Both the position numbers and the translations under genes were made by a program. The notes below the pieces were generated by a model. That model saw only the letters and a list, made by a program, of their open reading frames with translations. It made no database searches and was not told the DNA's origin. Below are positions 37,598 through 56,075 of a stretch of 64,000 bases of DNA, in pieces; within the stretch, counting starts at the first letter, position 1, and every line of letters begins with the position of its first letter. Source of the DNA: Pseudomonadota bacterium (GTDB lineage Bacteria > Pseudomonadota > Alphaproteobacteria > Rhizobiales > Rhizobiaceae); contig JBCBMZ010000001.1 in NCBI GenBank assembly GCA_039822005.1, positions 353,939 to 417,938 on the forward strand, read 5' to 3'.

Positions 37598-37611
37598 TTG
37601 ACAAATGTCAA
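37598..37611 (+). promoter_or_regulatory. Palindromic operator / -35 element TTGACAAATGTCAA upstream of the transketolase-RLP operon
   Basis: 6-bp inverted arms (TTGACA/TGTCAA) with a 2-nt spacer, 37 nt upstream of the GTG start. The 13-mer TTGACAAATGTCA recurs at 52592. The 10-mer TTGACAAATG recurs at 56046-56055 on the minus strand. Confidence 0.55.
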
Positions 37612-37647
37612 CGGCGGAGCTTTTCTCGCGCGCACGGGAGACAAAAA

Positions 37648-38583
37648 GTGCTGAACGAGAAAACCACCGAAGAAGTGGCGCTGGGCATTCGCCGCCGCGT
37701 TTTTGAACATTCCATGCGCAACAATGGCGGCTATTTGAGCCAGGCCTGCTCGGCCGCTGAACAGCTCGCCTTTTTGTACAATGAAGCGCTCAATCTCGGT
37801 CAGCCAACACTGCCGCCCGTGCCCAAACCGTTTGGAGGCGTGCCGTCCGCTGACAACACGGATTATCATACGGGAGCCGGCTATAATGGCCCGTTTGAGG
37901 CGCACTATGATCGACTGTTTATCGCACCAGCCCACTACGCGTTGGTGGCTTACGCAACGCTCATCGAGGTCGGACGGATGGATCCGGCGGGCCTTGAAAT
38001 GTTCAACAAGGATGGCTCCTCCGTCGAGATGATCGGCGCGGAGCATTCCCCCGGCATGGAAGTGCACAATGGCACGCTTGGCATTGGTCTTTCCACGGGC
38101 GCAGGCCTCGCCTTCGGCCGCAAGCGACGCGGCGAGACGGGTCAGGTCTGCGTGTTCATGTCAGACGGTGAAGTGCAGGAAGGCCAAACCTGGGAGGCCG
38201 TGCAGGCTTGCGCCCACCATGGCATCGACAATGTCTGGGCGCTCATGGATGTTAACGACCAGCAATGTGATGGAGCGATGGATAGCGTGATGGAAGTGCG
38301 CGATATCAAGGCCAAGTTCGAAAATTTCGGCGCGGTGTGCGTGGAGATTGACGCTCATGATTTGGATGCGATGCGCCAAGCCAAAGCGACATCTCACCAG
38401 GGACAGCCACTCATCATCCTTGCGCGTTCATCGCCGACACAAGGCATGGCGTTCTTGCAAAGACGGTTTCCCCGCCTGCACTATGTGCGCTTCAAATCGG
38501 ACGATGAGCGCGCTGAGATGAATGCGGCGATTGCCAAAGAGTTGGGCGTTCAGCCTGTCGATTACGGGCAAGGGGGGCACTGA
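37648..38583 (+). CDS. Transketolase, N-terminal (ThDP/PP-binding) subunit
   Basis: ThDP-binding region (MSDGEVQEGQTWEA...DVNDQQ). Split-TK architecture. GTG start at 37648 with a GGGAG SD. Confidence 0.85.
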   Translation: MLNEKTTEEVALGIRRRVFEHSMRNNGGYLSQACSAAEQLAFLYNEALNLGQPTLPPVPKPFGGVPSADNTDYHTGAGYNGPFEAHYDRLFIAPAHYALVAYATLIEVGRMDPAGLEMFNKDGSSVEMIGAEHSPGMEVHNGTLGIGLSTGAGLAFGRKRRGETGQVCVFMSDGEVQEGQTWEAVQACAHHGIDNVWALMDVNDQQCDGAMDSVMEVRDIKAKFENFGAVCVEIDAHDLDAMRQAKATSHQGQPLIILARSSPTQGMAFLQRRFPRLHYVRFKSDDERAEMNAAIAKELGVQPVDYGQGGH

Positions 38584-38584
38584 C

Positions 38585-39589
38585 ATGGTCGAAATGGTCA
38601 GCCGCCCATACGCGTCAGCATTTGAAAAATTCGCCGCAGGAAATCCGGACATACTTTGCCTGTCCGCCGATCTGACCTCGTCCTGCGAGATTGATGGTTT
38701 TCGTGACCGGCACCCCGAGCAATTTGTCTCTTTGGGTATGGCAGAGCAAAACATGATGAGCTTTGCCGGTGGGCTAGGCTTGGCCGGTTTCCGCCCGTTT
38801 CTTCACTCGTTCGGCGTCTTCCTTTACCGCCGCCCCTATGATCAATTGATGGCGTCTGTCGCCTACCCGAGGCGCAAGGTGCGCCTCATGGGATTTTTGC
38901 CGGGCATTACAACGCCGGGGGGCATGACGCACCAAGCCATTGAAGATATCGCAGTGATGCGTTCAATTCCGAACATGACGATCCTTGAAACCGGCGATGC
39001 CACGGAAGTGGAAAGCATTTGCGAAGCTGCCGACTCCATCGATGGTCCGGTCTATTGTCGCGTGTTGCGCGGGTCTGTACCGCGGTTGTTTGATACGCCC
39101 ATTGCAGTAGGCCACATGCGCGAATTGTCATTGGGCAGCGACGTCCTGATCGTAACATCCGGCATTACCACCGAAGAAGCGCTGCGCGCCCGCCAGGCGC
39201 TAGAAGATGCCGGAGTGTCGATCCGCCACGTCCACATCAACACCATCAAGCCTTTCGACGAAGACGCGCTGCTCGACCATATTGGCTCTGTATCCAAAGG
39301 CGTCATTGTACTGGAAAACCATGTCACCGAGGGAGGCGTTGGTTCGCTCGTCGCCGAGATTATGGCCGACAATGGCGCCGGCAAAAAGCTCGTGCGGCTC
39401 GGGTTGAAAGACACCTACGCCCATGGCGGATCGCGACCCTATCTGATGAAGCATTACGGCCTCGACGCGTCTGCCTTGGTGGCCGGCATTGAGAGACTTT
39501 TGGGCGCTGATTTGAGCGTTGCCGACGAGCAACTCACCGAAGCGCGCGTCGATGCGGTCCACTCAGCTGTCAAGGCGGAGGCACTGTAA
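38585..39589 (+). CDS. Transketolase, C-terminal (pyrimidine-binding) subunit
   Basis: GMAEQNMMSFAGGLGLAGFRPF motif. The ATG lies 1 nt after the stop of the N-terminal subunit gene. Confidence 0.85.
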   Translation: MVEMVSRPYASAFEKFAAGNPDILCLSADLTSSCEIDGFRDRHPEQFVSLGMAEQNMMSFAGGLGLAGFRPFLHSFGVFLYRRPYDQLMASVAYPRRKVRLMGFLPGITTPGGMTHQAIEDIAVMRSIPNMTILETGDATEVESICEAADSIDGPVYCRVLRGSVPRLFDTPIAVGHMRELSLGSDVLIVTSGITTEEALRARQALEDAGVSIRHVHINTIKPFDEDALLDHIGSVSKGVIVLENHVTEGGVGSLVAEIMADNGAGKKLVRLGLKDTYAHGGSRPYLMKHYGLDASALVAGIERLLGADLSVADEQLTEARVDAVHSAVKAEAL

Positions 39590-40720
39590 GTGCCGACGGA
39601 TGGTCGTTTTCGCGTCACCTACTTGATTGTTGCGGGTGACGAAAAAACAGCGCGAGAACGCGCCGACGCTGTTGCTTATGAGCAAACTGTCGAGGTGCCG
39701 GATGATGTCATTCCCGACGGCTACATCCGCGATGAAATCGTTGGCCAGATTGAGGCCGTTGAACCTTCGGTTGATGGACGCTGGCGCACGACCATTTCCT
39801 ACTCACCGGACAGTGTTGGTCTTGAGGTGATCCAACTGTTGAACGTCATGTTCGGCAACTCGTCTATCCAGCAGGGCGTTGCGGTTGACGGCTTTAAGCC
39901 GGGCCCGGTCATAAGCGCGCGTTTTGGCGGCGCGCGTTTTGGCGTGAAAGGCTTGCGCGAACTGACGGGCACCAAACGTGGCGGCTTGATTTCACCCGTC
40001 ATCAAACCGCAAGGCTCGTCCGTCGCGGCCTTAGCCGGCGTCGCCGGTCGATGCGTTGCGGGCGGTGCCGACATCATCAAGGATGACCACGGGTTAACCA
40101 ACCAGAAGATGGCCCCGTTTGCCGAGCGACTACAAATTGTCGGCGATGCTGTGCGCGAGGCCAATGCCAAAAATGGGCGCTCGGCGCTTTATTTCATAAA
40201 TATAAGCGGCTGGTCGGGCAATCCGGTGGAAGAAGCATTTCAAGCCAAGGAAGCCGGTGCGGGTGGCGTTCTCATCATGCCGGGACTGCTGGGCTATGCG
40301 CTCGCGCACCGGCTGTCATCCGACCCGGACTTTGGCCTGCCCATCATGACGCATCCGTCATTTACTGGTCCGTTCGTTTTGAACGCCGAAACCGGCATGA
40401 CTCACGCCATGCTGTACGGCACGGTTCAACGCTTGATGGGGGCTGACATTTCGGTGTTTCCCAATGTCGGTGGGCGCTTTGGTTTCTCCCGCGAGGAATG
40501 CCTCTCGATTGCCGGCGCCTGCCGTGATGCAGACGGGATCGGGCAACCCATGATGCCCTCGCCAGGCGGTGGCATGAGCGTGGATCGTGCGGCGGATATG
40601 GTGGAGATGTATGGCCAGGATGTCGTTTATCTGATCGGCGGCAGCCTTTTGCGCGCGGGCGACAAGATCGGCGACGCCGTCAAGGCGATGCGTGACGCGG
40701 TGGATGCGGCTCAAAGTTAG
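39590..40720 (+). CDS. RuBisCO-like protein (form IV RLP), short 376-aa variant
   Basis: RuBisCO large-subunit TIM-barrel signatures: VIKPQG (cf. KPKLG), GGADIIKDDH (cf. GG.DF.KDDE) and MTHPSF (cf. the His-rich strand). The GTG start immediately follows the transketolase stop codon. Confidence 0.8.
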   Translation: MPTDGRFRVTYLIVAGDEKTARERADAVAYEQTVEVPDDVIPDGYIRDEIVGQIEAVEPSVDGRWRTTISYSPDSVGLEVIQLLNVMFGNSSIQQGVAVDGFKPGPVISARFGGARFGVKGLRELTGTKRGGLISPVIKPQGSSVAALAGVAGRCVAGGADIIKDDHGLTNQKMAPFAERLQIVGDAVREANAKNGRSALYFINISGWSGNPVEEAFQAKEAGAGGVLIMPGLLGYALAHRLSSDPDFGLPIMTHPSFTGPFVLNAETGMTHAMLYGTVQRLMGADISVFPNVGGRFGFSREECLSIAGACRDADGIGQPMMPSPGGGMSVDRAADMVEMYGQDVVYLIGGSLLRAGDKIGDAVKAMRDAVDAAQS

Positions 40721-40881
40721 GGGATTTTCTGCTTGCGTTTGTTGAAGCGAGGCTGGTCCACCCCGTTCACAGGTCTCGGAGCGAAGTGTGCATTGGTCGC
40801 AAATATCTCAATGTCGGCTAGCCATATCCAAAAGGTGACTGTCATCACTTAATCTTCGCAAAAGCCCATTAAACGCCCCAC

Positions 40882-41904
40882 ATGAGTATTCGCGTCACAT
40901 CTGTCACAAAATCGTTCGGCCTTTGCACGGCCGTGGATGACATCTCATTTGATATTCCGGACGGCGTCTTCTTTTGTGTTGTAGGTCCATCGGGATGCGG
41001 AAAGAGTACGCTCTTGCGTCTCATTGCCGGATTGGACACGCCCGACAGCGGAACTGTTTTGCTTGATGGAAAAACCGTTTTTGATGATCAGCAGAACATT
41101 CCGCCTGAAGACCGGCAGGTGGGTGTCGTCTTTCAGTCTTATGCTTTATGGCCGCATCTGAGCGTGCTTCGCAACGTTGCATTTCCTTATGAAGCAAAGG
41201 GGGTTGCTCGGTCGGTTGCCCAAAAGCAGGCGGCAATCCATCTGGACACGGTGTCTTTGACGGAGTTTGCGGACCGCAGGCCGGAAGCGCTATCGGGGGG
41301 TCAGCGGCAGCGCGTTGCGCTGGCCCGGTGTCTGGCCGGAGATGCCCGAACGATCCTGATGGATGAACCCTTGGCCAATCTCGATCCACATCTTCGGCAT
41401 TCCATGGAGGCCGAGCTGCGTGCCTTTCACGACCGATCCGGTGTCACGACGCTGTTCATCACACATGATCAGCGCGAGGCTATGGCGCTTGCCGATTTGA
41501 TGGCCGTGATGGATGGCGGGCGGATTTTGCAGATTGGCACGCCACAAGAGATCTATGATCGGCCGACAAACATCAGCGTCGCCCGCTTCATTGGACGCGG
41601 AACTTTGCTTGCCTCCAACGTTGTGAATGGAAGAGCAACACTATTTGGCCAGGACGTCCCGGTGCTTGGCCGTGGAAGCGGGGTGTGCAACGTATTTGTC
41701 AGGCCCAAACAAGTGGCGATCGATCAGAGCGGATGGCCGGCCAAGGTGACCTCCGTGGCTTATCGTGGCGGGCATTGGGAGGTAGCAGCGACGGGTAAGC
41801 ACGATGCGCAAGAGGCCACAGCCTTGGTCGATCTCGACAGCCCGGTTCGTCTCGGCGAAACACTTTTTCTGAGCGTTTCCAGCGGCTGGGTTGTTCCCGA
41901 TTAG
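40882..41904 (+). CDS. ABC transporter ATPase (FbpC/PotA-like)
   Basis: Walker [10 protein letters not shown], signature [13 protein letters not shown], and a C-terminal TOBE-like tail. Confidence 0.88.
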   Translation: MSIRVTSVTKSFGLCTAVDDISFDIPDGVFFCVVGPSGCGKSTLLRLIAGLDTPDSGTVLLDGKTVFDDQQNIPPEDRQVGVVFQSYALWPHLSVLRNVAFPYEAKGVARSVAQKQAAIHLDTVSLTEFADRRPEALSGGQRQRVALARCLAGDARTILMDEPLANLDPHLRHSMEAELRAFHDRSGVTTLFITHDQREAMALADLMAVMDGGRILQIGTPQEIYDRPTNISVARFIGRGTLLASNVVNGRATLFGQDVPVLGRGSGVCNVFVRPKQVAIDQSGWPAKVTSVAYRGGHWEVAATGKHDAQEATALVDLDSPVRLGETLFLSVSSGWVVPD

Positions 41905-43601
41905 ATGCGCCAAGGCACCACGCCCGGTGGTGCGTGACGTCCCAAGCGGTCCAGTACCATCATCAGAACCACTGTCGCTACAACCGTCACCGCCGCCATG
42001 GCGGAGGCCAGCGTCGTGTAGCCCCCATCTTCATAGTTGAAGATCGTCGTCCCAATCGTTTCTGTCCCACTTGACCAAAGAAGCGCCGAGACCGTGACCT
42101 CATTGTACGCGGTCAGGAAGACCAGAATTGCCCCGGACATCGCGGCCGGCAGAACCAGCGGGAAAGTGATCCGCAACTGGCGCCGGAAAAAACCGGCGCC
42201 GGCCACGCGCGCGGCCTCGTTAAGGGCGGGATCAAGTTGCAGCGTCGCGGCCGCAACAGGCTTCAGGGCAATCGAAAAGAACGCGCACAGATAAGCCAGC
42301 AGGATGATCCAAAGCGTGTTGTATATCGAGAAACCGAGTATGGGGAGCGGCTTGATGAACGCCAGAATAAAGGCCACCGATATCACCAATCCGGGAATAG
42401 CGTAGGATATCTCGGAGAGCGCCGTTACTCCCGTTCCTATGCGCCGCATACCTGTCTTTTGCGAGGCGGTGTAGTGTGCCGTGACAATAGCCAACAAAGC
42501 CAAGACCAAGGCGGCAGCCGTCGCGATCAATGTTGAATTGAAAAAGGCGCGCAGCGTGACTGATTGGCGAAAAAGGACCTCGGCAAAATTGGCCATCGTT
42601 GCGGTCTCACTTGTAAGCCGCACCCCATAGGTGGGCACTAGAGCCGTGGCAAAGAGCGCCGTGACCGGCAGGATCAGTGTCGCGACGATGGCAAGCGCCA
42701 GTGCGACCTCCACACCCAGGCGTGCCCGCCCCAGACGGATGTCGAGCGCGGGCTGTGGCGGACCAATCAGTGCATTGCGACGGCTTGAAGACAGCCACAG
42801 CTGCAAGATCACCGCGATCGCTGCTATGACCGCGACAAGCGATGCAATAGCGGCCATGTCAGTTAGGACGGAAGGGCCAAAGCTGGCTAGGCGCCGCCAG
42901 ATCAATACCGGCAATGTCGTATAGCGTGCGGGGATCCCGAGAAGGGCAGGGATTCCAAAATTACCAAGAGCTGAAACGAAGGCCAACGCGTATCCGGCGA
43001 TCAATGTGGGAGCAAGTAGCGGCAAGACAACGCGCCGGACCATTCTCCAGGGGGCGGCGCCGGAGACGCGGGCAGCATCAGACATCTCTCTGGGCAGGCT
43101 TCGCAACGCAGCAAGGACTAGGAGGAACACCAAGGGCGCATGTTGGATGCCCAATAGCAGGATCACGCCCTCGCGCGAATAAAGCGGATGGGTTGACCCG
43201 ATCTCTGGCGCCAGACCAACAGCCTGAAGAAGCGGTGAGGAAGGCCCCAAGGCCTGTATCCATGCAATGGCCGTCACATGGGGCGGTACCATCATCGGGA
43301 TCAACAGGAGGAACGCAAACGCGCCTTTGCCCCGAACATCTGTCAAGCCAAGAACCAGAGCCGCCATGGTTCCGGCCAGCAAGGCGAGCAGAGCCGACAA
43401 GCCAGCGCTTTCCAAAGAGTTCCACAATGCGCGTGGCACGGATCGGCTGTCCAGCGCGTCAACAATGGACCCCAGCCCATCGCCAAGCGCGATTTGGACC
43501 AATCGTCCGAGCGGCAGGGCAAACAGAACCAGACAAACCAAAATGAGGACGGCGAGGGTGATGCCCTCGCCGCGCTCAGTGTTTTTCAGCAACCTGCGCA
43601 T
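41901..43601 (-). CDS. ABC transporter permease, duplicated 12-TM type (FbpB-like)
   Basis: 566-aa polytopic protein with two permease repeats. It converges on the ATPase gene, with a 4-nt overlap. Confidence 0.85.
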   Translation of the reverse strand: MRRLLKNTERGEGITLAVLILVCLVLFALPLGRLVQIALGDGLGSIVDALDSRSVPRALWNSLESAGLSALLALLAGTMAALVLGLTDVRGKGAFAFLLLIPMMVPPHVTAIAWIQALGPSSPLLQAVGLAPEIGSTHPLYSREGVILLLGIQHAPLVFLLVLAALRSLPREMSDAARVSGAAPWRMVRRVVLPLLAPTLIAGYALAFVSALGNFGIPALLGIPARYTTLPVLIWRRLASFGPSVLTDMAAIASLVAVIAAIAVILQLWLSSSRRNALIGPPQPALDIRLGRARLGVEVALALAIVATLILPVTALFATALVPTYGVRLTSETATMANFAEVLFRQSVTLRAFFNSTLIATAAALVLALLAIVTAHYTASQKTGMRRIGTGVTALSEISYAIPGLVISVAFILAFIKPLPILGFSIYNTLWIILLAYLCAFFSIALKPVAAATLQLDPALNEAARVAGAGFFRRQLRITFPLVLPAAMSGAILVFLTAYNEVTVSALLWSSGTETIGTTIFNYEDGGYTTLASAMAAVTVVATVVLMMVLDRLGRHAPPGVVPWRI

Positions 43602-44578: not shown

Positions 44579-45331
44579 TTTAGTCTCCTTTGGGGTTCGA
44601 GGCGCTCGGTACCGACCCGGAACAACAGCTTCATGACATTGGCGAGAATTTGGATCGGTTACCGCCGAAGGGCTGTGGCCCTTGATACCAGATCACCTGA
44701 CCATGTAATTTCTTTGGTCAAAATCGCAGCCGAGGAGTGAACTGGATGGCAGGCCAGAAGGCCCAATCCAAAGACCGTTTCGGGGTTTTTTTAGCTGCTT
44801 GGGTGCGCCGGATATTTGCCGGCTGTGAGTTTTGCTGCATCTGAGAAGATCGGGAGTCCAAGGTCGAGATAGTCCGCAAAGCAACCGCCGATGGGTCAAA
44901 TGTAAGACATAGTATCGTCTGTCCGATTGGTGGCAGCTTTGTGCGCGCATAGACCACTCTTTTTTTGCCTTTCACTGATAGAGAAGCGAAAAAGGGTGGT
45001 CAGGCGCTTTGTGGATTGAGCGCGCATTTGATGCTGCTTGTTTCCGGCTCTGCACACTTGCCCTAATAGAGGCAATCATAGCGCAAATTATTGGCATCGT
45101 TTACGTGCCGCATTGCTTTCGCCGCGAGCTTGACGATGCCACCATGAATACCGTCGCGGCGCTCTGTTGCCGCAAGCCCTCGGTGTTCATCCCGCGCGAA
45201 GCGCGGAAACAAAGCCGCTGTTCAGTTTTGATCACTTGCCAAGACAAGGTGGTTTTTAACATGTTTTGCGCAGGGTAGACTTGATCGATGTCAACTTTGG
45301 TTGACGCTATTGATCCGCACTCCAAGCGGCC

Positions 45332-46564: not shown

Positions 46565-46616
46565 TTAGCCTCTGGTTAGGCACGAGATTATCGTTTGATG
46601 TGGCGCAATCAAGACA

Positions 46617-48590: not shown

Positions 48591-48599
48591 TCCATCAGT

Positions 48600-50408
48600 T
48601 TAATCATCATCGGATGGGTCAGGCACATCTTCTGCGCCATCCGCCATCGGAAATTCGTTCTCAATCGCCTCAGCATCCGCCAACCGGACATTGACAACTT
48701 TGGCACCTGGAAACTTCTCCAGAATCTTGGCCACTTCCGGGTCGCGACTTGCATCGGAAACGAGCGCCAGTTTCTTGGCCTCATCTTGCTGCGATAGCGT
48801 CTCGCCCACCGCATCGCGCGCCAATGAAACCATCCATCGCTCACCGGTCCAGTCTTGCAGTTTCTTGGAGAGATCGCCCAGTAACGATTGAGGCGCGCCT
48901 TCGGCCAGACCAACTGTGAGGCTTAGTGGTTCAATCGACCCCAACAGCAAATATTGCCGGATATGCGCTTTCATGAGCGGGTCACGGTTTTTGTCACAAA
49001 GCGCAACAAGGTCTTGCAATGAATTGATGGCCACCTGTGGCGTAACCGGTGCCGGCGCCGGCTCCGATACGGGTGTGGGCCCGTTAGACACCAAGCGCAT
49101 GGTTGGCGCGCTACCGTCGGATGACGTCGATAGCGTGTGTGGTGTCATGCCTCCGCCGGCTGACATATCACCGTTACCACCTCCGGGGCGGGAGGCGGCA
49201 GGCGTTGCGGCCAGGTCCGGGTTTTGCCTGAGCGTTTCCAACTGCTTCATCGCCTGATCCAAGGTCGGTAAGTCGGCTGCATGGGCGAGGCGGATCAGCA
49301 CCATCTCGGCGGCCGCAAAAGGACGGGCCGCCGTTTCGACTTCGGAGATGCCTTTAAGCAAAACTTGCCAGGCACGACCCAAGGTTTGAACCGACAATTG
49401 CTGCGAAAACTGAAGCCCCAGATCACGCTCTTCCGGCGATAAAGAGACATCCATTTGCGCTGCCTGCGGAACAAAACGAAGGCGCGTGACAAGATGTGTA
49501 AACTGCGCCAAATCGCTTAGAATCACAGCCGGATCGGCACCCTGGTCATAGAGGGACTTAAAGTCTTCCAGTGTGCCCACCATGTCACCTGCCATCAGCT
49601 TTTCGAAAAGGCGAACAACCCTTCCCCTGTCCGCCAGGCCAAGCATCGTGCGCACCGATTGCTCATCGACATTTGCGTTTGTATGGGCAATCGCCTGATC
49701 CAAAATCGACAGCGCATCACGCACCGAACCCTCGCCAGCGCGCGCGATCATGGCGAGCGACGCGTCATCGATCTCGACATCTTCCTTGTCGGCAATATCC
49801 GCCAAATGCCGGGTCAAGACGTCGGCTTCCACGCGGCGCAAATCAAAGCGCTGACAACGCGACAGGACCGTAATTGGCACCTTGCGAATTTCGGTGGTCG
49901 CAAAGATGAATTTGGCATGTGGCGGGGGTTCTTCCAGTGTCTTTAACAGCGCGTTGAAGGCCTTTTCCGACAACATATGGATTTCATCGATGATATAGAC
50001 CTTGTAACGCGCCGACACAGGCGAATAGCGCACGCCGTCGATGATTTGCTTAATGTCGTCGATGCCCGTGTGAGACGCTGCATCCATCTCGACAATGTCG
50101 ACATGGCGGCCTTCCATGATGGCCGCGCAGTGCTCACCTGGCTGAGTCAGATCAATTGAAGGAGCATCCACATCACCGCGCTTGTAGTTGAGCGCACGCG
50201 CCAATATCCGCGCCGTCGTTGTTTTACCCACGCCGCGCACACCTGTCAGCATCCAGGCTTGCGCGATCCGTCCCGCCTCAAATGCATTTTTCAGCGTCTG
50301 AACCATCGGCGCCTGACCGATCAGGCCAGAAAAATCCGATGGGCGATATTTGCGCGCCAAGACGCGGTAGGCAGCCTGTTTTTCGGATACGGTGATCGGG
50401 TCGCTCAT
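48600..50408 (-). CDS. dnaX: DNA polymerase III subunits gamma/tau
   Basis: AAA+ Walker A GVRGVGKTTTARILA, Zn module (CAAIMEGRH region) and the SRC motif. Confidence 0.95.
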   Translation of the reverse strand: MSDPITVSEKQAAYRVLARKYRPSDFSGLIGQAPMVQTLKNAFEAGRIAQAWMLTGVRGVGKTTTARILARALNYKRGDVDAPSIDLTQPGEHCAAIMEGRHVDIVEMDAASHTGIDDIKQIIDGVRYSPVSARYKVYIIDEIHMLSEKAFNALLKTLEEPPPHAKFIFATTEIRKVPITVLSRCQRFDLRRVEADVLTRHLADIADKEDVEIDDASLAMIARAGEGSVRDALSILDQAIAHTNANVDEQSVRTMLGLADRGRVVRLFEKLMAGDMVGTLEDFKSLYDQGADPAVILSDLAQFTHLVTRLRFVPQAAQMDVSLSPEERDLGLQFSQQLSVQTLGRAWQVLLKGISEVETAARPFAAAEMVLIRLAHAADLPTLDQAMKQLETLRQNPDLAATPAASRPGGGNGDMSAGGGMTPHTLSTSSDGSAPTMRLVSNGPTPVSEPAPAPVTPQVAINSLQDLVALCDKNRDPLMKAHIRQYLLLGSIEPLSLTVGLAEGAPQSLLGDLSKKLQDWTGERWMVSLARDAVGETLSQQDEAKKLALVSDASRDPEVAKILEKFPGAKVVNVRLADAEAIENEFPMADGAEDVPDPSDDD

Positions 50409-50506
50409 AAGCCGACACTATAGGAGGTTACGGCTGGTTGGTAGTAGCGGCGAGGCCAAATTTCGGAGGAAATATTGCCGCTTACGGCCGCCCGCCCGAT
50501 TTTTCG

Positions 50507-52570
50507 CTAGCGCAGAGCTGCTTCAATATTCCCGCCATCAACGGTCATGACGTGGGCGGTGGTTCGTTCCGCTTTTGCTAGTGCCACAAAGGCATCGGCC
50601 ACATGGCGCGCTTCAACTTCTTTGCGCAAGAGATTGCCCGCCATATAGTCAGCTTCGGAAACACCGCGCGCTGATGCGCGGGATTTGATGAAATCCTCGT
50701 CCAACAGCCCCGACCTGATCCGGTCGGCGTTCACGCCGTTGACGCGGATATGGTCGCCGCCAAGTTCCAGCGCGAGTTGGCGTATCAAAAAGAAGGTCGC
50801 CGCTTTCGGCAGTCCGTAGGCCCCGAAACCTTTACCGGGATTGACCGCCTGTTTCGACACGTTGAAAAGGATTTGACCGCCATATCCCTGACGACGAAAA
50901 ACGCCGGTTGCCGCCTTTGCCATCTCGCGATGCGCAAAAAAGTTCACCTCAAATGACTGTCGAAGGGCGGGATCATCCAGTTCCAGAATATTGCCCTGCA
51001 ATGCGTAGCCTGCGTTCGAAACCAGAACATCAATACCTCCGAAGCGGCCTGCCACCGCTTCAATGGCCGACGCGGCAGCGCCCTCCTGTGCAAGATCTGC
51101 GGTAACTGGAAACGCACTTGCGCCCAAGTTCGCTCCCGCGTTGAGGCAAGCCTCTTCATCTCGATCAATCAACGCTATTGCGGCACCTTGCGCGGCAAAA
51201 ACCTTGGCCGTTGCAAGACCAATCGCGCCCGCACCACCTGTCACCGCAACCACTTGACCGGTGAAAGGTTTTGTACTGGCCTTGGATAATTTGGCCTGTT
51301 CCAAAGACCAATATTCCATGTCGAAAAGATCATCCGTGCCGATCGGATGAAAACCGCCGGCAGCTTCGCCCAGCGACATGACTTCAATCGCTTGCTCCGC
51401 GATATCGGCGGCCGTCGATGCTGCCTTGGCGTCTTTCCCGATGCCTGCGATCCCCACACCCTCTATCCACGCGACGCACGGGTGCGGCTCCAGCATGATT
51501 TTGTGCCCACCGACCCGCAAATTTTGCTGATCAAACATGGCGCGGTAAGCGTCGGCATAGGATTGCACTTTGCCTTTTAGCGTCTCGCTACCCGCAATTA
51601 TGTCATCTTGCGTCAAAACCAGCATTCGCCCTTTTGTTCGAATGACATGATCGGGCGAACCAACACCGCGCTGGCTGAGCGCAGTCAAATCGCTGTGCGC
51701 CAGGAATTGCGAAATGATTGGTCCGGTTCGTAGGTCTGTCACTACAGGTATGGGATCTTTATCATGGTGGTGGCCACGCAGGTCGGCTATCGCGCCGCGC
51801 ACAACAGGCAGAATTTGCGCTGCAGTCTTGTGCGGTGTCCTTGAGCGATGGACACTCGTTGAAAATGTGCGGCCGTTCGCTCTGTGTGCGAGCCATTCCT
51901 CCACAAGGTTGGTATGCTCGATTACACGGCCATAGCTTTCTTTTGCGGTGTCGCCGAAGGTGAAATGGCCATGCTTTAACAGAACCATACCGTCACATTC
52001 GGGGTTGGCATCAAACACGTCTGCGGCTTTTTTGGCGAGCGCAAAGCCGGGCATGATGTAGGGCACGCAAACCAATCGCCCCTCAAAAATCTCGTCTACC
52101 GCTGTTTCGGCATTGGGCAAATTGGCCAGTGCCAGAAAAGCCGTGGCATGGGTGTGGTCGACAAAACGATGCGGCAGATAGGCATGCAGCAATGTTTCCA
52201 CCGATGGATTGGGCGACATTGTATCAATTAGATTGGCGCGCTGCACATTGACCATGTCTTCATCTGACAGGGTATTAAGTTCCCGTAACGCCATCAAAGG
52301 CTCCATACGCACACCGGGTAAACCAGGTGCTTCAATGGTATCCAGATCCCAGCCGGACCCTTTGACATGCAGAACATCGATTGGGGTGCCAAACAGATCG
52401 CGGCGCGCAGTCTTGACCGAAGTGTTGCCGCCCCCATGCATAACCAAATCAGGATCGGCGCCGATGATACGCGATGAATATACCCTTTCCGCAACGAGCC
52501 TGTCGGCCTCATTATCGGCGGTGGACGCCCATTTGGCAGCGTCCAAATCGTTCCACAAATTGGGTCGCAT
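50507..52570 (-). CDS. Bifunctional class II aldolase-like / short-chain dehydrogenase fusion (RhaD-RhaEW/YuxG-like)
   Basis: N-terminal aldolase/adducin-like region of about 430 aa. C-terminal SDR with TGGAGAIG, NAG and YGLPK (YxxxK). Confidence 0.85.
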   Translation of the reverse strand: MRPNLWNDLDAAKWASTADNEADRLVAERVYSSRIIGADPDLVMHGGGNTSVKTARRDLFGTPIDVLHVKGSGWDLDTIEAPGLPGVRMEPLMALRELNTLSDEDMVNVQRANLIDTMSPNPSVETLLHAYLPHRFVDHTHATAFLALANLPNAETAVDEIFEGRLVCVPYIMPGFALAKKAADVFDANPECDGMVLLKHGHFTFGDTAKESYGRVIEHTNLVEEWLAHRANGRTFSTSVHRSRTPHKTAAQILPVVRGAIADLRGHHHDKDPIPVVTDLRTGPIISQFLAHSDLTALSQRGVGSPDHVIRTKGRMLVLTQDDIIAGSETLKGKVQSYADAYRAMFDQQNLRVGGHKIMLEPHPCVAWIEGVGIAGIGKDAKAASTAADIAEQAIEVMSLGEAAGGFHPIGTDDLFDMEYWSLEQAKLSKASTKPFTGQVVAVTGGAGAIGLATAKVFAAQGAAIALIDRDEEACLNAGANLGASAFPVTADLAQEGAAASAIEAVAGRFGGIDVLVSNAGYALQGNILELDDPALRQSFEVNFFAHREMAKAATGVFRRQGYGGQILFNVSKQAVNPGKGFGAYGLPKAATFFLIRQLALELGGDHIRVNGVNADRIRSGLLDEDFIKSRASARGVSEADYMAGNLLRKEVEARHVADAFVALAKAERTTAHVMTVDGGNIEAALR

Positions 52571-52591
52571 GTTCTATCTCCCACGCCTTGT

Positions 52592-52605
52592 TTGACAAAT
52601 GTCAG
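52592..52605 (+). promoter_or_regulatory. Operator / -35 element TTGACAAATGTCAG in the divergent aldolase-SDR / sorC promoter region
   Basis: Same 13-mer as at 37598. A related half-site, TGTCAAATGT, lies at 52613-52622. It is 22 nt from the aldolase-SDR start and 36 nt from the sorC start. Confidence 0.55.
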
Positions 52606-52640
52606 CAAGGTCTGTCAAATGTTTACCCGGAGGAATTGGT

Positions 52641-53615
52641 ATGTCATTAGAGGCGTCCCGGCGCACACAACGCATGGTTAGTGGTGAGGACATCGTCATC
52701 GAAGCTGCGTGGCTGTACTACCACGACAGCTTGAACCAGAACGATATCGCGGAACGGCTTGGCGTATCGCGCGCCACTGTGGTCAATTATCTGCAAGAAG
52801 CACGTGAGCGCGGTTTTGTGCAAATCAGCATGTCGGCCGACGCTTTCAGCGGACACCGCCTTGCAATCGCAATCAAAGAGCTTTTTGGCTTGGACGATGT
52901 ACTCGTAATTCCCGACGGCAAACTATCTGTCGATCAAGCGGCGAACCGCGTTGCCCGCGCTGCTGCACGTTGGTTGCCTTCCATGCTTGCACCGGGCGAC
53001 CGATTGGGCGTTGCGTGGGGCAAGACGATCTACGACGTTGCGGAAAATTTGGAACCCGTCGCCATACCCGATCTGACGGTGCTCCAGTTGGTCGGGTCAA
53101 TGGCGACGCCTTACGGATTTTCCGCCGATGTTTGCTCCTCCTATGTGGCGCGGCGCTTGTTTGCGCGTTGTATCAATTTGCATGTACCGGCGATCGTCTC
53201 GACGCCGGAAGTTGCCGACGTCTTGCGCCGCGAAACCCTCATCGCCAGCCAGTTTGATGAGATAACGCGCTTCAACAAGACGCTGTTTGCTGTTGGCTCG
53301 TGTTTGCCAGACAGCCACGTGGTTTCGTCCGGCGTGGCAACGGTTGCCGAACTGCAATGGTATGTGGATCAAGGAGCGACCGGTGTGCTGTGCGGGCGGT
53401 TTATTGACCGCAATGGCAAAGGCATTGAAGGCCCGCTCGATGCGCGCATGATGGGCGTTTCAGTCGATATGATGCGCAGTCGCGAAACGGGGATTTTGGT
53501 TTCGGTCGCAGCCGATCGCGTTCCTGCTACGGTGGCAGCCTTGCGCGGTGGCTACGCGACACACCTTGTCACCGATCAGTCGAGCGCGGAAAAGCTGTTG
53601 ACTTCAAGCAGCTGA
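52641..53615 (+). CDS. SorC/DeoR-type sugar-binding transcriptional regulator
   Basis: N-terminal HTH ([24 protein letters not shown]) and a C-terminal sugar-phosphate-binding domain. The start was set at the ATG at 52641, which has a GGAGGA SD. Confidence 0.85.
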
Positions 53616-54707
53616 ACGCCTTTCGGGGAACAGAGTTAAAAGACCTTCCGGGCTCGCATCACATACACCGCGTTCCGTAATCAGGCCGGTGATGAGACGG
53701 GCCGGCGTCACATCAAAGGCCGGGTTGCCGCCGGGCGTGCCGTCGGGCGAAATTTGCACAAATCCCGTCTCGCCATTTTCCTGTTTGCCGAAAATGTGCG
53801 TGACCTCCCGTCCATCACGCTCCTCAATCGGAATTTCCTTCAAGCCATCCTTGACGGTCCAATCAATGGTCGATGATGGCAACGCAACATAGAAGGGAAC
53901 GCCATTGTCGCTGGCGGCCAACGCTTTGAGATAGGTCCCGATTTTGTTGCAAACGTCGCCACGCGCTGTCGTTCTGTCGGTGCCAACGATCACCATATCC
54001 ACCTGACCATGCTGCATCAGATGTCCTCCAGCATTATCGACAATCAAATGGTGCGGAATGTCATTGCCGACCATCTCCCACGAAGTAAGCTGTGCGCCCT
54101 GATTGCGCGGCCTCGTCTCGTCCACCCAAACATGGATCGCAATGCCGGCTTCCTGCGCGTGATACATCGGCGATGTCGCCGTTCCCCAATCGACCGTCGC
54201 GAGCCAACCCGCATTGCAATGGGTCAGCATATTGACAGGCTCGCCGGGCCCTTTGGTTTCTGCAATCCGTTTGACGATCTCCAATCCGTGGACGCCGATC
54301 ATTCGGTTGCACGCGGCATCTTCATCGCAAATCAGCGCCGCCTTTTTAAACGCTGCCTCGGCACGATCTGAAGGTGCCAGAGAGTCCAATTCTGAACGCA
54401 TCGCATCGAGTGCCCAGCGAAGATTGATCGCCGTCGGTCTGGTCGCATGCAAAATATCATAGGCATGGTCGAGCGCGCCATCGGAGGGGTCACGCGCCAT
54501 TTGCTCGGCAACGCCATAGGCTGCGGTCGCGCCAATCAGGGGCGCGCCCCTTACCCACATGTCACGAATGGCCGTTGCAAACGCATCAAGAGACTTGATG
54601 GAGACGATCTTGAACTCATGGGGCAGCCAGCGCTGATCGATGATGCGCACGTCGCCCGTTTCAGAATCGCGCCATATGGAGCGGTAGTGGGTGCCTTGAA
54701 CCTTCAT
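53604..54707 (-). CDS. mtnA: S-methyl-5-thioribose-1-phosphate isomerase family (MtnA/DrdI-like)
   Basis: eIF-2B-related family: [42 protein letters not shown]. Confidence 0.88.
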
Positions 54708-55969
54708 ACTTTGCCTCCCGTTTCCATTTGACGGGCCATCGCAACCACGCGATCCACGCCGCCAATTGCTTTGCGGTTGAGCACCAGTGAGCGTCCAAGT
54801 CTGAGCGCGCGCTCCTCCAGGATAGCCCGTTCGTCTTCATCGGCAATCGTATCCAGTTCAGCGACGTGCGCGAGGCCAAGGATGCGCCTGTGCATTTCGA
54901 TACCGGCAAATCCCAAAAGATCCTCCAGAATTTCGTTTAGCAATTGCTCAAGCGCTGCATCTGCAGCTTCCGGCTGACCTTGATCTTCGTACAAGGAATG
55001 AGGGTAGAGGATGCCCGTACGTTCGGTTCGCCAAAGCGTTGCAAATTCGTCGCAAAAAGCGGTCCACGTATCGGTTGTTTGCTGGAGGATCCACTCTTGG
55101 TAGCCCGCGCAGACGTCCATGTCTTTCAGGTGGGCGGACGCTGCCTGGTAGGCCATCAGATAGTTGCCGATCAGCATGCCGATATCGAAACCAAAGGGAC
55201 CGTAGAAGGCAAATTCCGGGTCGATCATACGCGCTTCATCGGGTGTTGCCATGATGGAACCCGCATGCAAATCGCCGTGGCACATCGTTTCCTGTTTGGC
55301 GGTGAAAGCCCGCTTCATGTGCTGTGCTTCAACTTTTAGCAAATGATCGGCGCGCAACTCTGCAACTACACTATCCAACTGAGGGGTTGTGTGCCGGTTC
55401 ATTTCCGCATCGAAATAGGGGTCGGTGAAAACAAGGTTTTCAGTAATGTCGCAAAGTTCGATGTTGCCCGAAAAAAGCGCCACATCTTTTTTTTTGTCAC
55501 CGGCATTCATGGACAGATCTGAGCCGCGAAACGCCGTGCGCGCGCAGAACCGACCCATTGTCTCGCCCAGCTTGGCAACCTTTTGGCCAGCCATCATATG
55601 ATGGCGCAATATAATATGCGGATGGAGGCGTTCCATCACAATCAACGCCTGCTCTTCGTCAAAGTGCAGGATCGCAGGAACGGATCCAGGGTCGCGCTCC
55701 TGCTGGCGTTTTAGGGCATGATATTCGAAAAACGCGCGCTTGAGCGGTAGCGGCCAGGAATCGCCGACCAAACGCACATACGGCAGCGCCTGCTTGACGA
55801 TCACTGAACCCTTCGTGCCCTCAACGATGAAGACTAGATTAAGATTACCGTCTCCCACTTCCTGAACGGACCAGGATGCGGGATCCTCTCCTACGACACT
55901 GGTCAAAGCATCCAGCGAACCAAGCCGTACAGGAAGCGTTTCCTGTGACAGTGCTTCATATTGCGACAC
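54704..55969 (-). CDS. mtnK: S-methyl-5-thioribose kinase family (MtnK/DrdK-like)
   Basis: [11 protein letters not shown] and KQALPYVR signatures, catalytic HGDLHAGS. There is a 4-nt overlap with mtnA. Confidence 0.88.
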
Positions 55970-56041
55970 CTGTTTCCTCCCATGATCCAGGTGAAATAAA
56001 CACCAATCCGCGGTTGTGTCTTCGCATCGTATGAAGCCGAT

Positions 56042-56075
56042 CAGGCATTTGTCAATATAGCTTGACTTTTGTCAG
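56042..56075. promoter_or_regulatory. Two copies of the TTGAC-N4-GTCA element in the divergent mtnK / ABC importer promoter region
   Basis: The minus strand at 56055-56042 reads TTGACAAATGCCTG. The plus strand at 56062-56075 reads TTGACTTTTGTCAG. Confidence 0.5.

What the first reader, a model, noticed from the sequence alone, without database searches (positions are those of the whole stretch)
37598..56075. A shared near-palindromic element (TTGACAAATGTCA) links the RLP/transketolase operon to the SorC-regulator, mtnK-mtnA, aldolase-SDR and ABC importer cluster 15-18 kb away
**Seen directly**
- TTGACAAATGTCAA lies at 37598-37611, 37 nt upstream of the TK-N start.
- TTGACAAATGTCAG lies at 52592-52605, between the aldolase-SDR and sorC genes. 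A half-site, TGTCAAATGT, lies at 52613-52622.
- TTGACAAATGCCTG lies on the minus strand at 56055-56042.
- TTGACTTTTGTCAG lies at 56062-56075, between mtnK and the sugar ABC ATPase gene.
- A weaker TGTCAAAT lies at 36472-36479, upstream of the ureohydrolase gene.
- The plus-strand copies start 45-50 nt upstream of their start codons, so each overlaps a likely -35 box, the usual arrangement for a repressor operator.

**Statistics**
- A single 13-mer repeat is not significant across the whole 64 kb window, where dozens are expected by chance.
- Three or four occurrences of a palindromic 10-13-mer confined to a few hundred bp of promoter DNA next to functionally related genes is significant.

**Inference**
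- The SorC-family regulator at 52641-53615 is the most likely binding protein.
- This would define one regulon covering both gene blocks.
Basis: seen in the sequence. Interest (0 to 1): 0.8.

Follow-up and report, generated by a model that had tools for sequence, protein, structure and literature searches.

The report
MtnR-type repressor operator shared by three promoters
Three promoters in this window carry the same conserved two-box DNA site, most likely the operator of the neighbouring SorC-family (MtnR-like) repressor, which places an uncharacterised RuBisCO-like protein and a split transketolase under the same control as the genes for uptake and breakdown of 5-methylthioribose/5-deoxyribose.

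Summary
**Observation:** confirmed. All six stated sequences are at the stated coordinates.

**What the element is:**
- It is not a single 13-mer. It is a bipartite operator of two 14-bp pseudo-palindromes (consensus TTGACAAAAGTCAA) offset by 20 bp.
- It occurs three times: 37578-37611, 52592-52625 and 56042-56075.
The weak site at 36472 is not supported.

**Evidence:**
- A matrix built only from orthologous promoters of other genomes ranks these three sites first in the window: 38, 28 and 17 bits, against 2.6 for the next independent site.
- In 1.39 Mb around 80 sorC orthologs, all 160 two-box hits lie upstream of sorC/aldolase-SDR, mtnK/ABC importer, or the transketolase-RLP genes.
- In most relatives the transketolase-RLP operon sits beside the importer. 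Where it is fused into the importer operon it has no operator of its own. Where it is unlinked, as here, it keeps one.

**Likely binding protein:**
- The regulator is 37% identical to E. coli YjhU/MtnR. A 2025 study showed MtnR represses mtnK-mtnA-aldolase but did not define its binding site.
- The alphaproteobacterial box model also picks out that E. coli promoter.

**Verdict:** This is a new member of a known kind. Binding itself is untested.

The parts
37578..37591 (.). Operator C, weak (upstream) box: TCTACAAAAGCCAA.
   Evidence: It matches the 14-mer consensus at 11 of 14 positions and lies exactly 20 bp from the strong box. The same left box (ACAAAAGACA or ACATTTGCCA) is conserved upstream of tkN in 23 loci.
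37598..37611 (.). Operator C, strong box: TTGACAAATGTCAA. It contains the presumed -35 hexamer TTGACA of the tkN-tkC-rlp operon.
   Evidence: It is the top single-box score in the window, 22.9 bits. The pair scores 33.6 bits. It is retained in the syntenic locus L085 and in the unlinked operon of L087.
37648..38583 (+). tkN: transketolase N-terminal (ThDP-binding) subunit, GTG start.
   Evidence: Pfam PF00456 and NCBIfam transketolase hits. The GTG start is conserved in orthologs.
38585..39589 (+). tkC: transketolase pyrimidine-binding and C-terminal subunit.
   Evidence: Pfam PF02779 and PF02780. The ATG lies 2 nt after the tkN stop, matching the gene call in syntenic L085.
39590..40720 (+). 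rlp: short RuBisCO-like protein (376 aa) of unassigned function.
   Evidence: Pfam PF00016. The best solved relative is 3QFW (E 3e-73); the MtnW enolases reach only E 1e-30. It scores below the NCBIfam MtnW cut-offs. It has a KDDH motif where MtnW has KDDE.
50507..52570 (-). Bifunctional class II aldolase / short-chain dehydrogenase, transcribed divergently from sorC.
   Evidence: NCBIfam NF006192 scores 870 bits against a cut-off of 639. Pfam Aldolase_II plus adh_short.
52592..52605 (.). Operator A, strong box: TTGACAAATGTCAG. It contains the presumed -35 of sorC.
   Evidence: 20.8 bits. TTGACAAWWGTCA is conserved in about 60 orthologous loci.
52612..52625 (.). Operator A, weak box: CTGTCAAATGTTTA. 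On the opposite strand it contains TTGACA, the presumed -35 of the aldolase-SDR gene.
   Evidence: 12.4 bits at a 20-bp offset; the pair scores 33.1 bits. TGTCAAATRT is conserved in the orthologous loci.
52641..53615 (+). SorC-family (MtnR-like) transcriptional regulator, presumed autoregulated repressor.
   Evidence: Pfam PF04198 plus an HTH. It aligns full length to B. subtilis DeoR 8R7Y, E 2e-33. It is 37% identical to E. coli YjhU/MtnR, E 2e-77. The recognition helix is invariant in all orthologs printed.
53604..54707 (-). mtnA: S-methyl-5-thioribose-1-phosphate isomerase.
   Evidence: TIGR00512 scores 416 bits against a cut-off of 279.
54704..55969 (-). mtnK: S-methyl-5-thioribose kinase.
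   Evidence: TIGR01767 scores 492 bits against a cut-off of 275.
56042..56055 (.). Operator B, left box: CAGGCATTTGTCAA. On the minus strand it contains the -35 TTGACA of mtnK.
   Evidence: 13.4 bits. The generic sigma-70 scan finds TTGACA, an 18-nt spacer and TACGAT on the minus strand here. The box is conserved in about 60 loci.
56062..56075 (.). Operator B, right box: TTGACTTTTGTCAG. It contains the presumed -35 of the ABC importer operon.
   Evidence: 18.7 bits; the pair scores 32.2 bits at a 20-bp offset. TTGACTTTTGTCA is unchanged in the 32 listed loci whose regulator is closest to this one.
56107..57630 (+). Sugar ABC importer ATPase with two nucleotide-binding domains.
   Evidence: NCBIfam AraG/YtfR/RbsA-type hits.
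57627..58688 (+). Sugar ABC importer permease.
   Evidence: NCBIfam RbsC-type hits.
58718..59767 (+). Periplasmic sugar-binding protein.
   Evidence: Pfam Peripla_BP_4.
59841..60284 (+). RbsD/FucU-type sugar mutarotase, probably the last gene of the importer operon.
   Evidence: Pfam PF05025, E 3e-30. The same gene follows the binding protein in L081, L083 and L086.

Best explanation
**What it is.** The three sites are operators of the SorC-family regulator encoded at 52641-53615. This protein is a homolog of E. coli MtnR (YjhU).

**Anatomy.** Each operator has two 14-bp pseudo-palindromic boxes (consensus TTGACAAAAGTCAA) whose starts are 20 bp apart, about two helical turns. At least one box in each operator contains the TTGACA/TTGACT -35 hexamer of the controlled promoter. 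At the two divergent intergenic regions, the two boxes cover the -35 elements of both divergent promoters.

**How it works (inferred).**
- By analogy with the solved DeoR and CggR complexes, a dimer of dimers binds both boxes and blocks RNA polymerase.
- A phosphorylated pathway intermediate releases the repressor. Candidates are 5-deoxyribose-1-P / methylthioribose-1-P or the corresponding ribulose-1-P.

**Regulon.** It comprises five transcription units:
- sorC itself (autoregulation)
- the aldolase-SDR gene
- mtnK-mtnA
- the ABC importer plus mutarotase
- tkN-tkC-rlp

Together these probably encode uptake and catabolism of 5-deoxy- or 5-methylthio-pentoses.

**Shown versus inferred.**
- Shown: the sequence anatomy, its conservation and specificity, the gene linkage, and the homology to MtnR and DeoR.
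- Inferred: that this protein binds the site, that it represses, the oligomeric state, the effector and the substrate.
For: 1. **Independent matrix.** A matrix from other genomes ranks the three window sites first, at 38.3, 28.3 and 17.4 bits against 2.6 for the next independent position. The two-box model gives 33.6, 33.1 and 32.2 bits against 12.8 for the next.
2. **Specificity in relatives.** In 1.39 Mb around 80 sorC orthologs, 160 of 160 two-box hits of at least 20 bits lie upstream of these genes:
   - sorC/aldSDR: 71
   - mtnK/abcA: 64
   - tkN: 23
   - a lone rlp: 2

   With the rigid matrix, 144 of 145 hits do.
3. **Footprint.** The boxes carry 1.0-1.7 bits per column. Spacer and flanks carry about 0.3-0.7.
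4. **Positions outside promoter hexamers are conserved.**
   - The GTCA half of the strong box lies in the promoter spacer.
   - The left box of operator C lies upstream of the -35, next to unrelated genes.
5. **Regulon logic.**
   - tkN-tkC-rlp lies next to the importer in about 40 loci.
   - In the 6 loci where it follows the importer genes within 80 bp it has no operator of its own; 3 more co-oriented loci with gaps of about 555-590 bp also lack one.
   - Unlinked copies keep an operator: the window, L085 and L087.
6. **The regulator.**
   - sorC is the only regulator gene conserved in the cluster.
   - 78 of 79 orthologs carry the site upstream of themselves.
   - The recognition helix [17 protein letters not shown] is invariant.
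7. **Family architecture.** DeoR has a 39-bp operator with a palindrome plus a weaker half, at -60 to -21. CggR repeats are offset by 20 bp. Both bind as tetramers (PMC11229326).
8. **E. coli precedent.**
   - YjhU/MtnR carries PF04198 and is 37% identical to this regulator.
   - It represses mtnK-mtnA-ald2 unless 5-deoxyribose is present (PMC12632272).
   - In 92 kb of E. coli DNA the only box pairs of at least 16 bits are in that promoter, at 27.6 and 21.5 bits with a 21-bp period. P is about 5e-5 for a random region of the same composition.
9. **No RNA alternative.** No Rfam family is found in 35000-61000.
Against: - There is no binding, footprint or expression data for this organism or any alphaproteobacterial ortholog.
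- The strong boxes contain a consensus -35, so part of the conservation is promoter conservation.
- The weak boxes taken singly (10.7-13.4 bits) fall within window background, which reaches 13.4 bits. Only the pairing at a fixed offset is distinctive.
- The generic sigma-70 scan recognises only the mtnK promoter. The other -10 assignments are inference.
- The loose consensus is not unique in nature. In a metagenome scan 102 of 120 hits were not next to core genes. Most were in low-GC DNA; in contigs of at least 55% GC, 15 of 27 were at core promoters.
- Offsets differ slightly between sites: 19 bp at Hoeflea tkN sites and 21 bp in E. coli.
- The lysine that I recall forming the covalent effector adduct in B. 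subtilis DeoR (K141) aligns to valine here. Effector chemistry therefore cannot be carried over from DeoR.
Confidence: 0.82

Rival explanations
1. The conserved sequence is only promoter architecture: strong -35 hexamers and overlapping -10 elements of divergent promoters. No dedicated transcription factor binds it.
For: - Every strong box contains TTGACA or TTGACT.
- In the sorC/aldolase region, TGTCAAAT can be read as a -10 on one strand and a -35 on the other.
- The mtnK promoter is picked up by the generic scan.
Against: - Conserved positions extend beyond the hexamers: the GTCA half lies in the spacer, and the whole left box of operator C lies at about -55 next to unrelated genes.
- The pattern is absent from every other promoter in the 64-kb window and in 1.39 Mb of related DNA.
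- A homologous regulator represses the homologous E. coli promoter, which carries the same boxes although it has a different -35 and -10 (PMC12632272).
Confidence: 0.04
2. The site is a genuine operator but is bound by a different protein encoded elsewhere, not by the adjacent SorC-family regulator.
For: No binding experiment exists. Assigning the binder from adjacency is circumstantial.
Against: - The site occurs upstream of the regulator gene in 78 of 79 orthologous loci.
- It is found only in this cluster.
- No other regulator gene is conserved there.
- The box architecture fits the SorC family (PMC11229326).
- E. coli MtnR is the homolog and does repress mtnK (PMC12632272).
- The operator variants (GTATAA outer half) follow the clade with a variant DNA-binding domain (EVAW / ISRAT).
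Confidence: 0.05
3. The SorC-type protein binds these sites but acts as an activator or dual regulator rather than a simple repressor.
For: - From my own knowledge, K. pneumoniae SorC has been described as both an activator and a repressor.
- At the tkN promoter the second box lies upstream of the -35, a position compatible with activation.
- The predicted -10 elements are weak.
Against: - The boxes overlap consensus -35 hexamers, which would be occluded.
- The characterised close homologs DeoR, CggR and E. coli MtnR are repressors released by pathway intermediates (PMC11229326, PMC12632272).
Confidence: 0.08

Closest known systems
[quoted passage not shown]
   Same: - Both are SorC-family proteins (PF04198 plus an N-terminal HTH).
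- They are 37% identical over the full length, with similar recognition helices: [15 protein letters not shown] against VSRVTVVKYLQTARE.
- Both are encoded next to mtnK-mtnA plus a class II aldolase and a sugar transporter.
- The E. coli promoter carries boxes recognised by the model built here, 21 bp apart.
   Different: - In E. coli the recognition sequence is stated to be unknown. Here it is defined by comparative genomics.
- The E. coli operon has a stand-alone aldolase and a GRP-family permease, and is also CRP-dependent. Here there is an aldolase-SDR fusion, an ABC importer plus mutarotase, and an added transketolase-RLP operon.
- The E. coli boxes lie over the -10 to about +35. Here they lie over the -35.
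- Orthology, as opposed to homology, was not established.
B. subtilis DeoR and its dra-nupC-pdp operator (SorC family, DeoR subclass; PMC11229326, PDB 8R7Y)
   Same: - Best solved relative, aligned over the full length (E 2e-33).
- The operator has a strong palindromic half (TTGAACAAAATTTCAA against TTGACAAAAGTCAA here) plus a weaker second half about two turns away, overlapping the -35.
- The arginine that contacts bases in DeoR (R34) is conserved here.
   Different: - Boxes are 16 bp with an offset of about 22 bp in DeoR, against 14 bp and 20 bp here.
- DeoR R39 corresponds to an invariant asparagine here.
- The lysine I recall as the covalent deoxyribose-5-P site (K141) is valine here.
- The window protein scores below the NCBIfam DeoR equivalog cut-off, 202 against 420 bits.
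- The regulated pathway is different.
B. subtilis CggR and its gapA operator
   Same: Same family. It has a tandem operator with a 20-bp repeat offset, is bound by a tetramer, and is released by sugar phosphates (PMC11229326, PMC2943609).
   Different: It has a winged-helix DNA-binding subclass, an unrelated box sequence (CGGGAC-N6-TGTC), and an operator downstream of the transcription start.
DHAP shunt / 5-deoxyribose salvage (MtnK or DrdK, MtnA or DrdI, Ald2 or DrdA; PMC6079011, PMC10986504)
   Same: A kinase, an isomerase and a class II aldolase are encoded together. The mtnK and mtnA calls are above the NCBIfam equivalog cut-offs.
   Different: The aldolase is fused to an SDR. An ABC importer, a mutarotase and a transketolase-RLP operon are co-regulated. 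None of the papers I could search describes that combination.
RLP-dependent MTA-isoprenoid shunt of Rhodospirillum rubrum (RLP acting on methylthioribulose-1-P; from my knowledge of Erb et al. 2012, discussed in PMC5893883 and PMC6302742)
   Same: An RLP is genetically tied to mtnA/mtnK-type genes, which suggests a ribulose-1-phosphate-type substrate.
   Different: - The partner here is a split transketolase rather than a cupin.
- The RLP is a short 3QFW-like form with KDDH in place of KDDE.
- Its activity is untested.

Membership tests
SorC family of transcriptional regulators | C-terminal sugar-binding effector domain (Pfam PF04198) | tested here: met
   PF04198 scores 177.7 bits, E 3e-52, over residues 74-320.
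SorC family of transcriptional regulators | N-terminal helix-turn-helix DNA-binding domain (DeoR/HTH subclass) | tested here: met
   MarR_2 and HTH_11 hits over residues 24-62. The domain aligns to the DeoR DNA-binding domain in 8R7Y and 7BHY.
SorC family of transcriptional regulators | Operator made of two half-operators about two helical turns apart | tested here: met
   Two 14-bp boxes at a 20-bp offset at all three promoters, conserved in 160 sites in relatives. For comparison, see DeoR and CggR in PMC11229326.
SorC family of transcriptional regulators | Tetramer (dimer of dimers) on DNA, released by a phosphorylated sugar | not testable with these tools
   This needs a gel shift, mass photometry or a structure of the purified protein with candidate effectors.
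B. subtilis DeoR equivalog (deoxyribonucleoside regulator) | Score above the NCBIfam NF053881 cut-off | tested here: not met
   202 bits against a cut-off of 420.
B. subtilis DeoR equivalog (deoxyribonucleoside regulator) | Lysine that forms the covalent adduct with deoxyribose-5-P (K141; residue number from my memory) | tested here: not met
   In the alignment to 8R7Y, the QLKGG lysine corresponds to valine in QLVGSM.
MtnR (E. coli YjhU) type repressor of 5-deoxypentose genes | Sequence homology to YjhU over the full length | tested here: met
   37% identity over 318 residues, E 2e-77. This is a higher score than against DeoR or LsrR. Reciprocal-best orthology was not tested.
MtnR (E. coli YjhU) type repressor of 5-deoxypentose genes | Encoded next to, and controlling, mtnK-mtnA plus an aldolase | tested here: inconclusive
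   Adjacency is conserved in nearly all of the 80 loci, and operators lie at those promoters. Control itself has been shown only in E. coli (PMC12632272).
MtnR (E. coli YjhU) type repressor of 5-deoxypentose genes | Shared recognition sequence | tested here: inconclusive
   The alphaproteobacterial box model singles out the E. coli mtnK promoter (27.6 bits, P about 5e-5). The E. coli binding site has not been determined experimentally.
DHAP shunt / methylthioribose salvage enzymes | MtnK and MtnA above the curated equivalog cut-offs | tested here: met
   TIGR01767 scores 492 against 275. TIGR00512 scores 416 against 279.
DHAP shunt / methylthioribose salvage enzymes | Class II aldolase that cleaves the ribulose-1-phosphate intermediate | tested here: inconclusive
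   An Aldolase_II domain is present but fused to an SDR. Substrate and orthology to Ald2/DrdA were not tested.
MtnW / YkrW RLP (2,3-diketo-5-methylthiopentyl-1-P enolase) | Score above the NCBIfam equivalog cut-offs | tested here: not met
   165 bits against 409 (NF007095) and 121 against 513 (TIGR03332). E is about 1e-30 to the solved MtnW proteins, against 3e-73 to 3QFW.

The most novel reading that the evidence does not exclude
The operator-defined regulon may reveal an undescribed second branch of 5-deoxy- / 5-methylthio-pentose catabolism in marine alphaproteobacteria, running parallel to the aldolase (DHAP-shunt) branch.

In this reading, a short, uncharacterised RLP clade (3QFW-like, KDDH motif) and a split transketolase process the MtnA product. 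For example, the RLP could isomerise (methylthio/deoxy)ribulose-1-P to a 1-substituted xylulose-5-P. The ThDP enzyme could then cleave that product to glyceraldehyde-3-P plus a C2 unit.

The same analysis would also supply the recognition sequence of MtnR, which the E. coli study left unknown.
Probability: 0.3. Interest if true: 0.8.

Novelty: new member of a known kind. Interest (0 to 1): 0.55.

Why it matters
1. **It assigns a context to an orphan enzyme pair.** Shared control places an orphan RuBisCO-like protein clade and a split transketolase in a defined physiological setting: uptake and catabolism of 5-methylthioribose / 5-deoxyribose, which are by-products of S-adenosylmethionine chemistry. 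Their function becomes directly testable in culturable Hoeflea, Maritalea, Oricola and Paracoccus strains.

2. **It proposes a concrete operator for MtnR-type repressors.** The proposed site is two 14-bp boxes about 20 bp apart. The 2025 E. coli study that named MtnR stated that the recognition sequence was unknown.

3. **It shows the gene set is widespread.** The DHAP-shunt-like genes in many marine alphaproteobacteria sit with a dedicated high-affinity importer under substrate-responsive control. That fits scavenging of these compounds from the environment rather than only internal detoxification.

Tried and rejected
- **The weak TGTCAAAT at 36472.** It has no matrix or box support, and the arginase-family gene is not conserved with the cluster. 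Rejected.
- **The single 13-mer as the unit of analysis.** It is not significant on its own. I replaced it with the two-box model.
- **The rigid 31-nt matrix with an 8-nt gap.** It misses the Hoeflea tkN operators because their box offset is 19 bp. I replaced it with a symmetric 14-mer box matrix allowing offsets of 19-21 bp.
- **The generic sigma-70 scan.** It recognises only the mtnK promoter. The other -10 assignments remain inference.
- **A riboswitch or small-RNA alternative.** No Rfam hit in 35000-61000.
- **A reverse search of metagenomes with the loose consensus.** It was only partly informative. Most hits are chance matches in AT-rich DNA or belong to other systems. 18 of 120 hits, and 15 of 27 in high-GC contigs, lie at core promoters.
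- **Literature.** Searches for RLP plus transketolase plus mtnK, for DeepYkr, for IV-GOS and for SorC plus methylthioribose found no description of this cluster or regulon. Erb et al. 2012 could not be retrieved.
- **B. subtilis DeoR as the family assignment.** Rejected as an ortholog: the score is below the cut-off and the effector lysine is absent.

Full report
**1. Observation.**

- TTGACAAATGTCAA at 37598-37611
- TTGACAAATGTCAG at 52592-52605
- TGTCAAATGT at 52613-52622
- TTGACAAATGCCTG on the minus strand at 56055-56042
- TTGACTTTTGTCAG at 56062-56075
- TGTCAAAT at 36472-36479

The gene calls also hold:

| Coordinates | Strand | Gene |
|---|---|---|
| 36559-37530 | + | arginase-family gene |
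| 37648-38583 | + | tkN |
| 38585-39589 | + | tkC (start checked) |
| 39590-40720 | + | RuBisCO-like protein |
| 50507-52570 | - | aldolase/SDR fusion |
| 52641-53615 | + | SorC-family regulator |
| 53604-54707 | - | mtnA |
| 54704-55969 | - | mtnK |
| 56107-59767 | + | sugar ABC importer |

Between the two blocks lie unrelated genes: another ABC system, mltB, recR, a DMT transporter and dnaX.

With up to 3 mismatches there are 28 matches against 18.9 expected. With up to 2 mismatches there are 6 against 2.0.

**2. Relatives.**

The window comes from an uncultured Pseudomonadota MAG. The regulator has many orthologs of 53-88% identity in Hoeflea, Roseitalea, Oricola, Paracoccaceae and related marine alphaproteobacteria. 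I fetched 80 genomic loci, each with ±10 kb around an ortholog, and mapped the window's proteins onto them.

- The order aldolase-SDR (-), sorC (+), mtnA (-), mtnK (-), ABC ATPase, permease, binding protein (+) is nearly universal.
- In about 40 loci tkN-tkC-rlp lies immediately beside the binding-protein gene. It is either convergent or co-oriented right behind that gene.
- The 12-kb separation in this window is therefore a derived rearrangement. It is shared with the syntenic contig L085.

**3. What the element is.**

I aligned the three classes of upstream region across these loci. The conserved unit is bipartite: two 14-bp pseudo-palindromes (consensus TTGACAAAAGTCAA) whose starts are 20 bp apart.

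In the window the boxes are:

| Operator | Controlled genes | Boxes |
|---|---|---|
| C | tkN-tkC-rlp | 37578-37591 and 37598-37611 |
| A | aldolase-SDR and sorC | 52592-52605 and 52612-52625 |
| B | mtnK and importer | 56042-56055 and 56062-56075 |

Information content is 1.0-1.7 bits per column in the boxes, against about 0.3 in the spacer and 5' flank.

**4. Tests that do not depend on the window.**

- **Matrix from other genomes.** I built a 31-nt matrix from aldolase/sorC promoters of other genomes only. On both strands of the window it scores 38.3, 28.3 and 17.4 bits at the three operators and 2.6 bits at the next independent position.
- **Two-box model on the window.** A symmetric 14-mer box matrix with a required partner at 19-21 bp gives 33.6, 33.1 and 32.2 bits, against 12.8 for the next pair.
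- **Two-box model on relatives.** Across the 1.39 Mb of related loci, all 160 pairs of at least 20 bits lie upstream of core genes:
  - sorC/aldolase-SDR: 71
  - mtnK/importer: 64
  - tkN: 23
  - a lone rlp: 2
- **Rigid matrix on relatives.** 144 of 145 hits lie at these promoters.
- **Regulon logic.** In the 6 loci where tkN directly follows the importer genes (gaps of 52-77 bp) it has no operator of its own. The same holds for 3 further co-oriented loci with gaps of about 555-590 bp. Where the operon is unlinked, as in the window, L085 and L087 (which has different neighbours), the operator travels with it.
- **The 36472 site.** It receives no support.

**5. Relation to promoters.**

Each strong box contains TTGACA or TTGACT.

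- In region B the two boxes carry the -35 hexamers of the back-to-back mtnK and importer promoters. The mtnK promoter is also found by the generic scan.
- In region A the -35 of each divergent promoter lies in one box, and the presumed -10 of each overlaps the other box.
- In region C the strong box carries the -35, and the second box lies upstream at about -55.

The other -10 elements are non-canonical, so those assignments are inference.

Promoter function alone does not explain three things:
- the conserved GTCA half in the spacer;
- the upstream box of region C, which abuts unrelated genes in different genomes;
- the restriction of the pattern to this one cluster.

**6. Who binds.**

- The adjacent protein has PF04198 plus an N-terminal HTH.
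- It aligns over its full length to B. subtilis DeoR (8R7Y, E 2e-33).
- Its recognition helix [17 protein letters not shown] is invariant in all orthologs printed.
- A subclade with changes next to that helix (EVAW, ISRAT) carries variant outer half-sites (GTATAA).
- 78 of 79 orthologs have the operator upstream of their own gene.

The SorC-family structures show tetramers, built as dimers of dimers, on operators made of two halves (PMC11229326):
- DeoR has a 39-bp site, ATTGAACAAAATTTCAATTACCAATTTACATATGTTCAA, with a strong palindrome and a weaker half, at -60 to -21.
- CggR has repeats offset by 20 bp.

**7. Experimental precedent.**

A 2025 study showed that E. coli YjhU, renamed MtnR, represses the mtnK-mtnA-ald2-transporter operon unless 5-deoxyribose is present. 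It proposed a phosphorylated intermediate as the effector. It stated that the recognition sequence is unknown and noted only a CAAAT-N9-ATTTG semi-palindrome over the -10 (PMC12632272).

- YjhU is a SorC-family protein and is 37% identical to the window regulator over 318 residues (E 2e-77).
- I applied the alphaproteobacterial box matrix to the E. coli SE15 locus. The two best boxes in 17 kb both lie in the mtnK promoter: TTATCAAATGTAAA and TTGTCATGTGACAA. A third, weaker box continues a 21-bp period.
- No other pair of at least 16 bits occurs in 92 kb of E. coli DNA.
- A random region of the same composition reaches 27.6 bits with P of about 5e-5.

The window regulator is therefore best described as MtnR-like.

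**8. Mechanism (inferred).**

- A tetramer occupies both boxes and occludes the -35 elements.
- At the two divergent regions one complex would silence both promoters, including that of the regulator gene.
- A phosphorylated intermediate made by MtnK or MtnA releases it.

The lysine that I recall forming the covalent adduct in DeoR (K141) is valine here, and DeoR R39 is an invariant asparagine. Details of effector and base recognition therefore differ from DeoR.

**9. Pathway context.**

- mtnK and mtnA exceed their equivalog cut-offs.
- The importer is of the ribose type and has a mutarotase.
- In Roseitalea a Bmp-type nucleoside ABC system, an amidohydrolase, a purine-nucleoside-phosphorylase-family gene and two SDRs lie directly upstream of tkN.

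Together these fit uptake and catabolism of 5'-deoxynucleoside-derived pentoses.

The RLP belongs to a short clade. Its nearest solved relative is 3QFW, it is far from the MtnW enolases, and it has KDDH in place of KDDE. Its function is unknown. Two MAGs carry rlp without transketolase genes within the fetched ±10 kb, still behind an operator.

**10. Rivals.**

- **Promoter-only conservation, or a different binding protein.** Both are unlikely for the reasons given in sections 4-7.
- **Activation rather than repression.** This cannot be excluded without experiments. It is disfavoured by the overlap with consensus -35 elements and by the behaviour of DeoR, CggR and MtnR.

**11. Limits.**

- No experiment exists for this lineage.
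- Only ±10 kb per genome could be scanned.
- The loose consensus is not unique across all metagenomes. 102 of 120 pattern hits were not at core genes, and most of those were in low-GC DNA. In contigs of at least 55% GC, 15 of 27 hits were at core promoters.
- No paper in the searchable library describes this regulon or the RLP-transketolase-mtnKA cluster. Curated regulon databases could not be consulted.

**12. Verdict.**

This is a new member of a known kind, an MtnR/SorC-type local repressor with a bipartite operator. Its value is that it ties an orphan RLP and a split transketolase to 5-deoxypentose metabolism, and that it proposes the MtnR recognition sequence.

Noticed in passing
window 59841-60284 (+): A 147-aa RbsD/FucU-type mutarotase gene follows the sugar-binding protein gene. 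It probably belongs to the importer operon. The same gene sits there in Maritalea, Roseitalea and another contig.
   Followed up: partly
That gene is absent from the conserved cluster in relatives, except in the syntenic contig L085.
   Followed up: yes
L083 and L084, 1-7971 (Roseitalea porphyridii): Directly upstream of tkN lie a Bmp-type nucleoside ABC importer, an amidohydrolase, a PNP/UDP-family phosphorylase and two SDRs. This hints that the pathway starts from 5'-deoxynucleosides. The operator still sits between the last SDR gene and tkN.
   Followed up: partly
L028 17701-18807 and L039 13617-14759: Two Phyllobacteriaceae/Roseitalea MAGs carry the RLP gene with no transketolase genes detected in the fetched locus. 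It is still preceded by a two-box operator, so the RLP may be able to work without the transketolase.
   Followed up: partly
window 60338-63605 (-); L020, L021, L024 at about 4480-7770: A cluster of a mannitol-dehydrogenase-family gene, an SDR and an ABC ATPase lies downstream of the importer in the window. In three Hoeflea genomes it lies next to the aldolase-SDR gene. No operator precedes it, and any functional link is open.
   Followed up: no
window 39590-40720 (RLP), residues around 163-167: The RLP and its solved relative 3QFW both have KDDH where RuBisCO and MtnW have KDDE. They keep the K-P of the KPK motif (IKPQ). This suggests an altered metal site in this clade.
   Followed up: no
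L209 13229-13284 (E. coli SE15 mtnK promoter): Three MtnR-like boxes with a 21-bp period (TTGTCATGTGACAA, TTATCAAATGTAAA, GTGACACATGTAGA) overlap the semi-palindrome noted in PMC12632272. They are a candidate for the undefined E. coli MtnR operator.
   Followed up: partly
L015, L029, L033, L052, L055, about 2-5 kb upstream of the aldolase-SDR or regulator gene: A second SorC-family paralog of about 28% identity, with its own ribose-type ABC importer, lies nearby in several genomes. It has no operator of the type described here.
   Followed up: no
metagenome loci L095, L101, L117, L121, L122, L135, L166, L171, L175, L206: A recurrent, near-identical site CAAAAGACACCTGACAGTGACTTTTGTCA appears in one series of metagenomes, away from any core gene. 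It may be the operator of an unrelated system or a repeated element.
   Followed up: no
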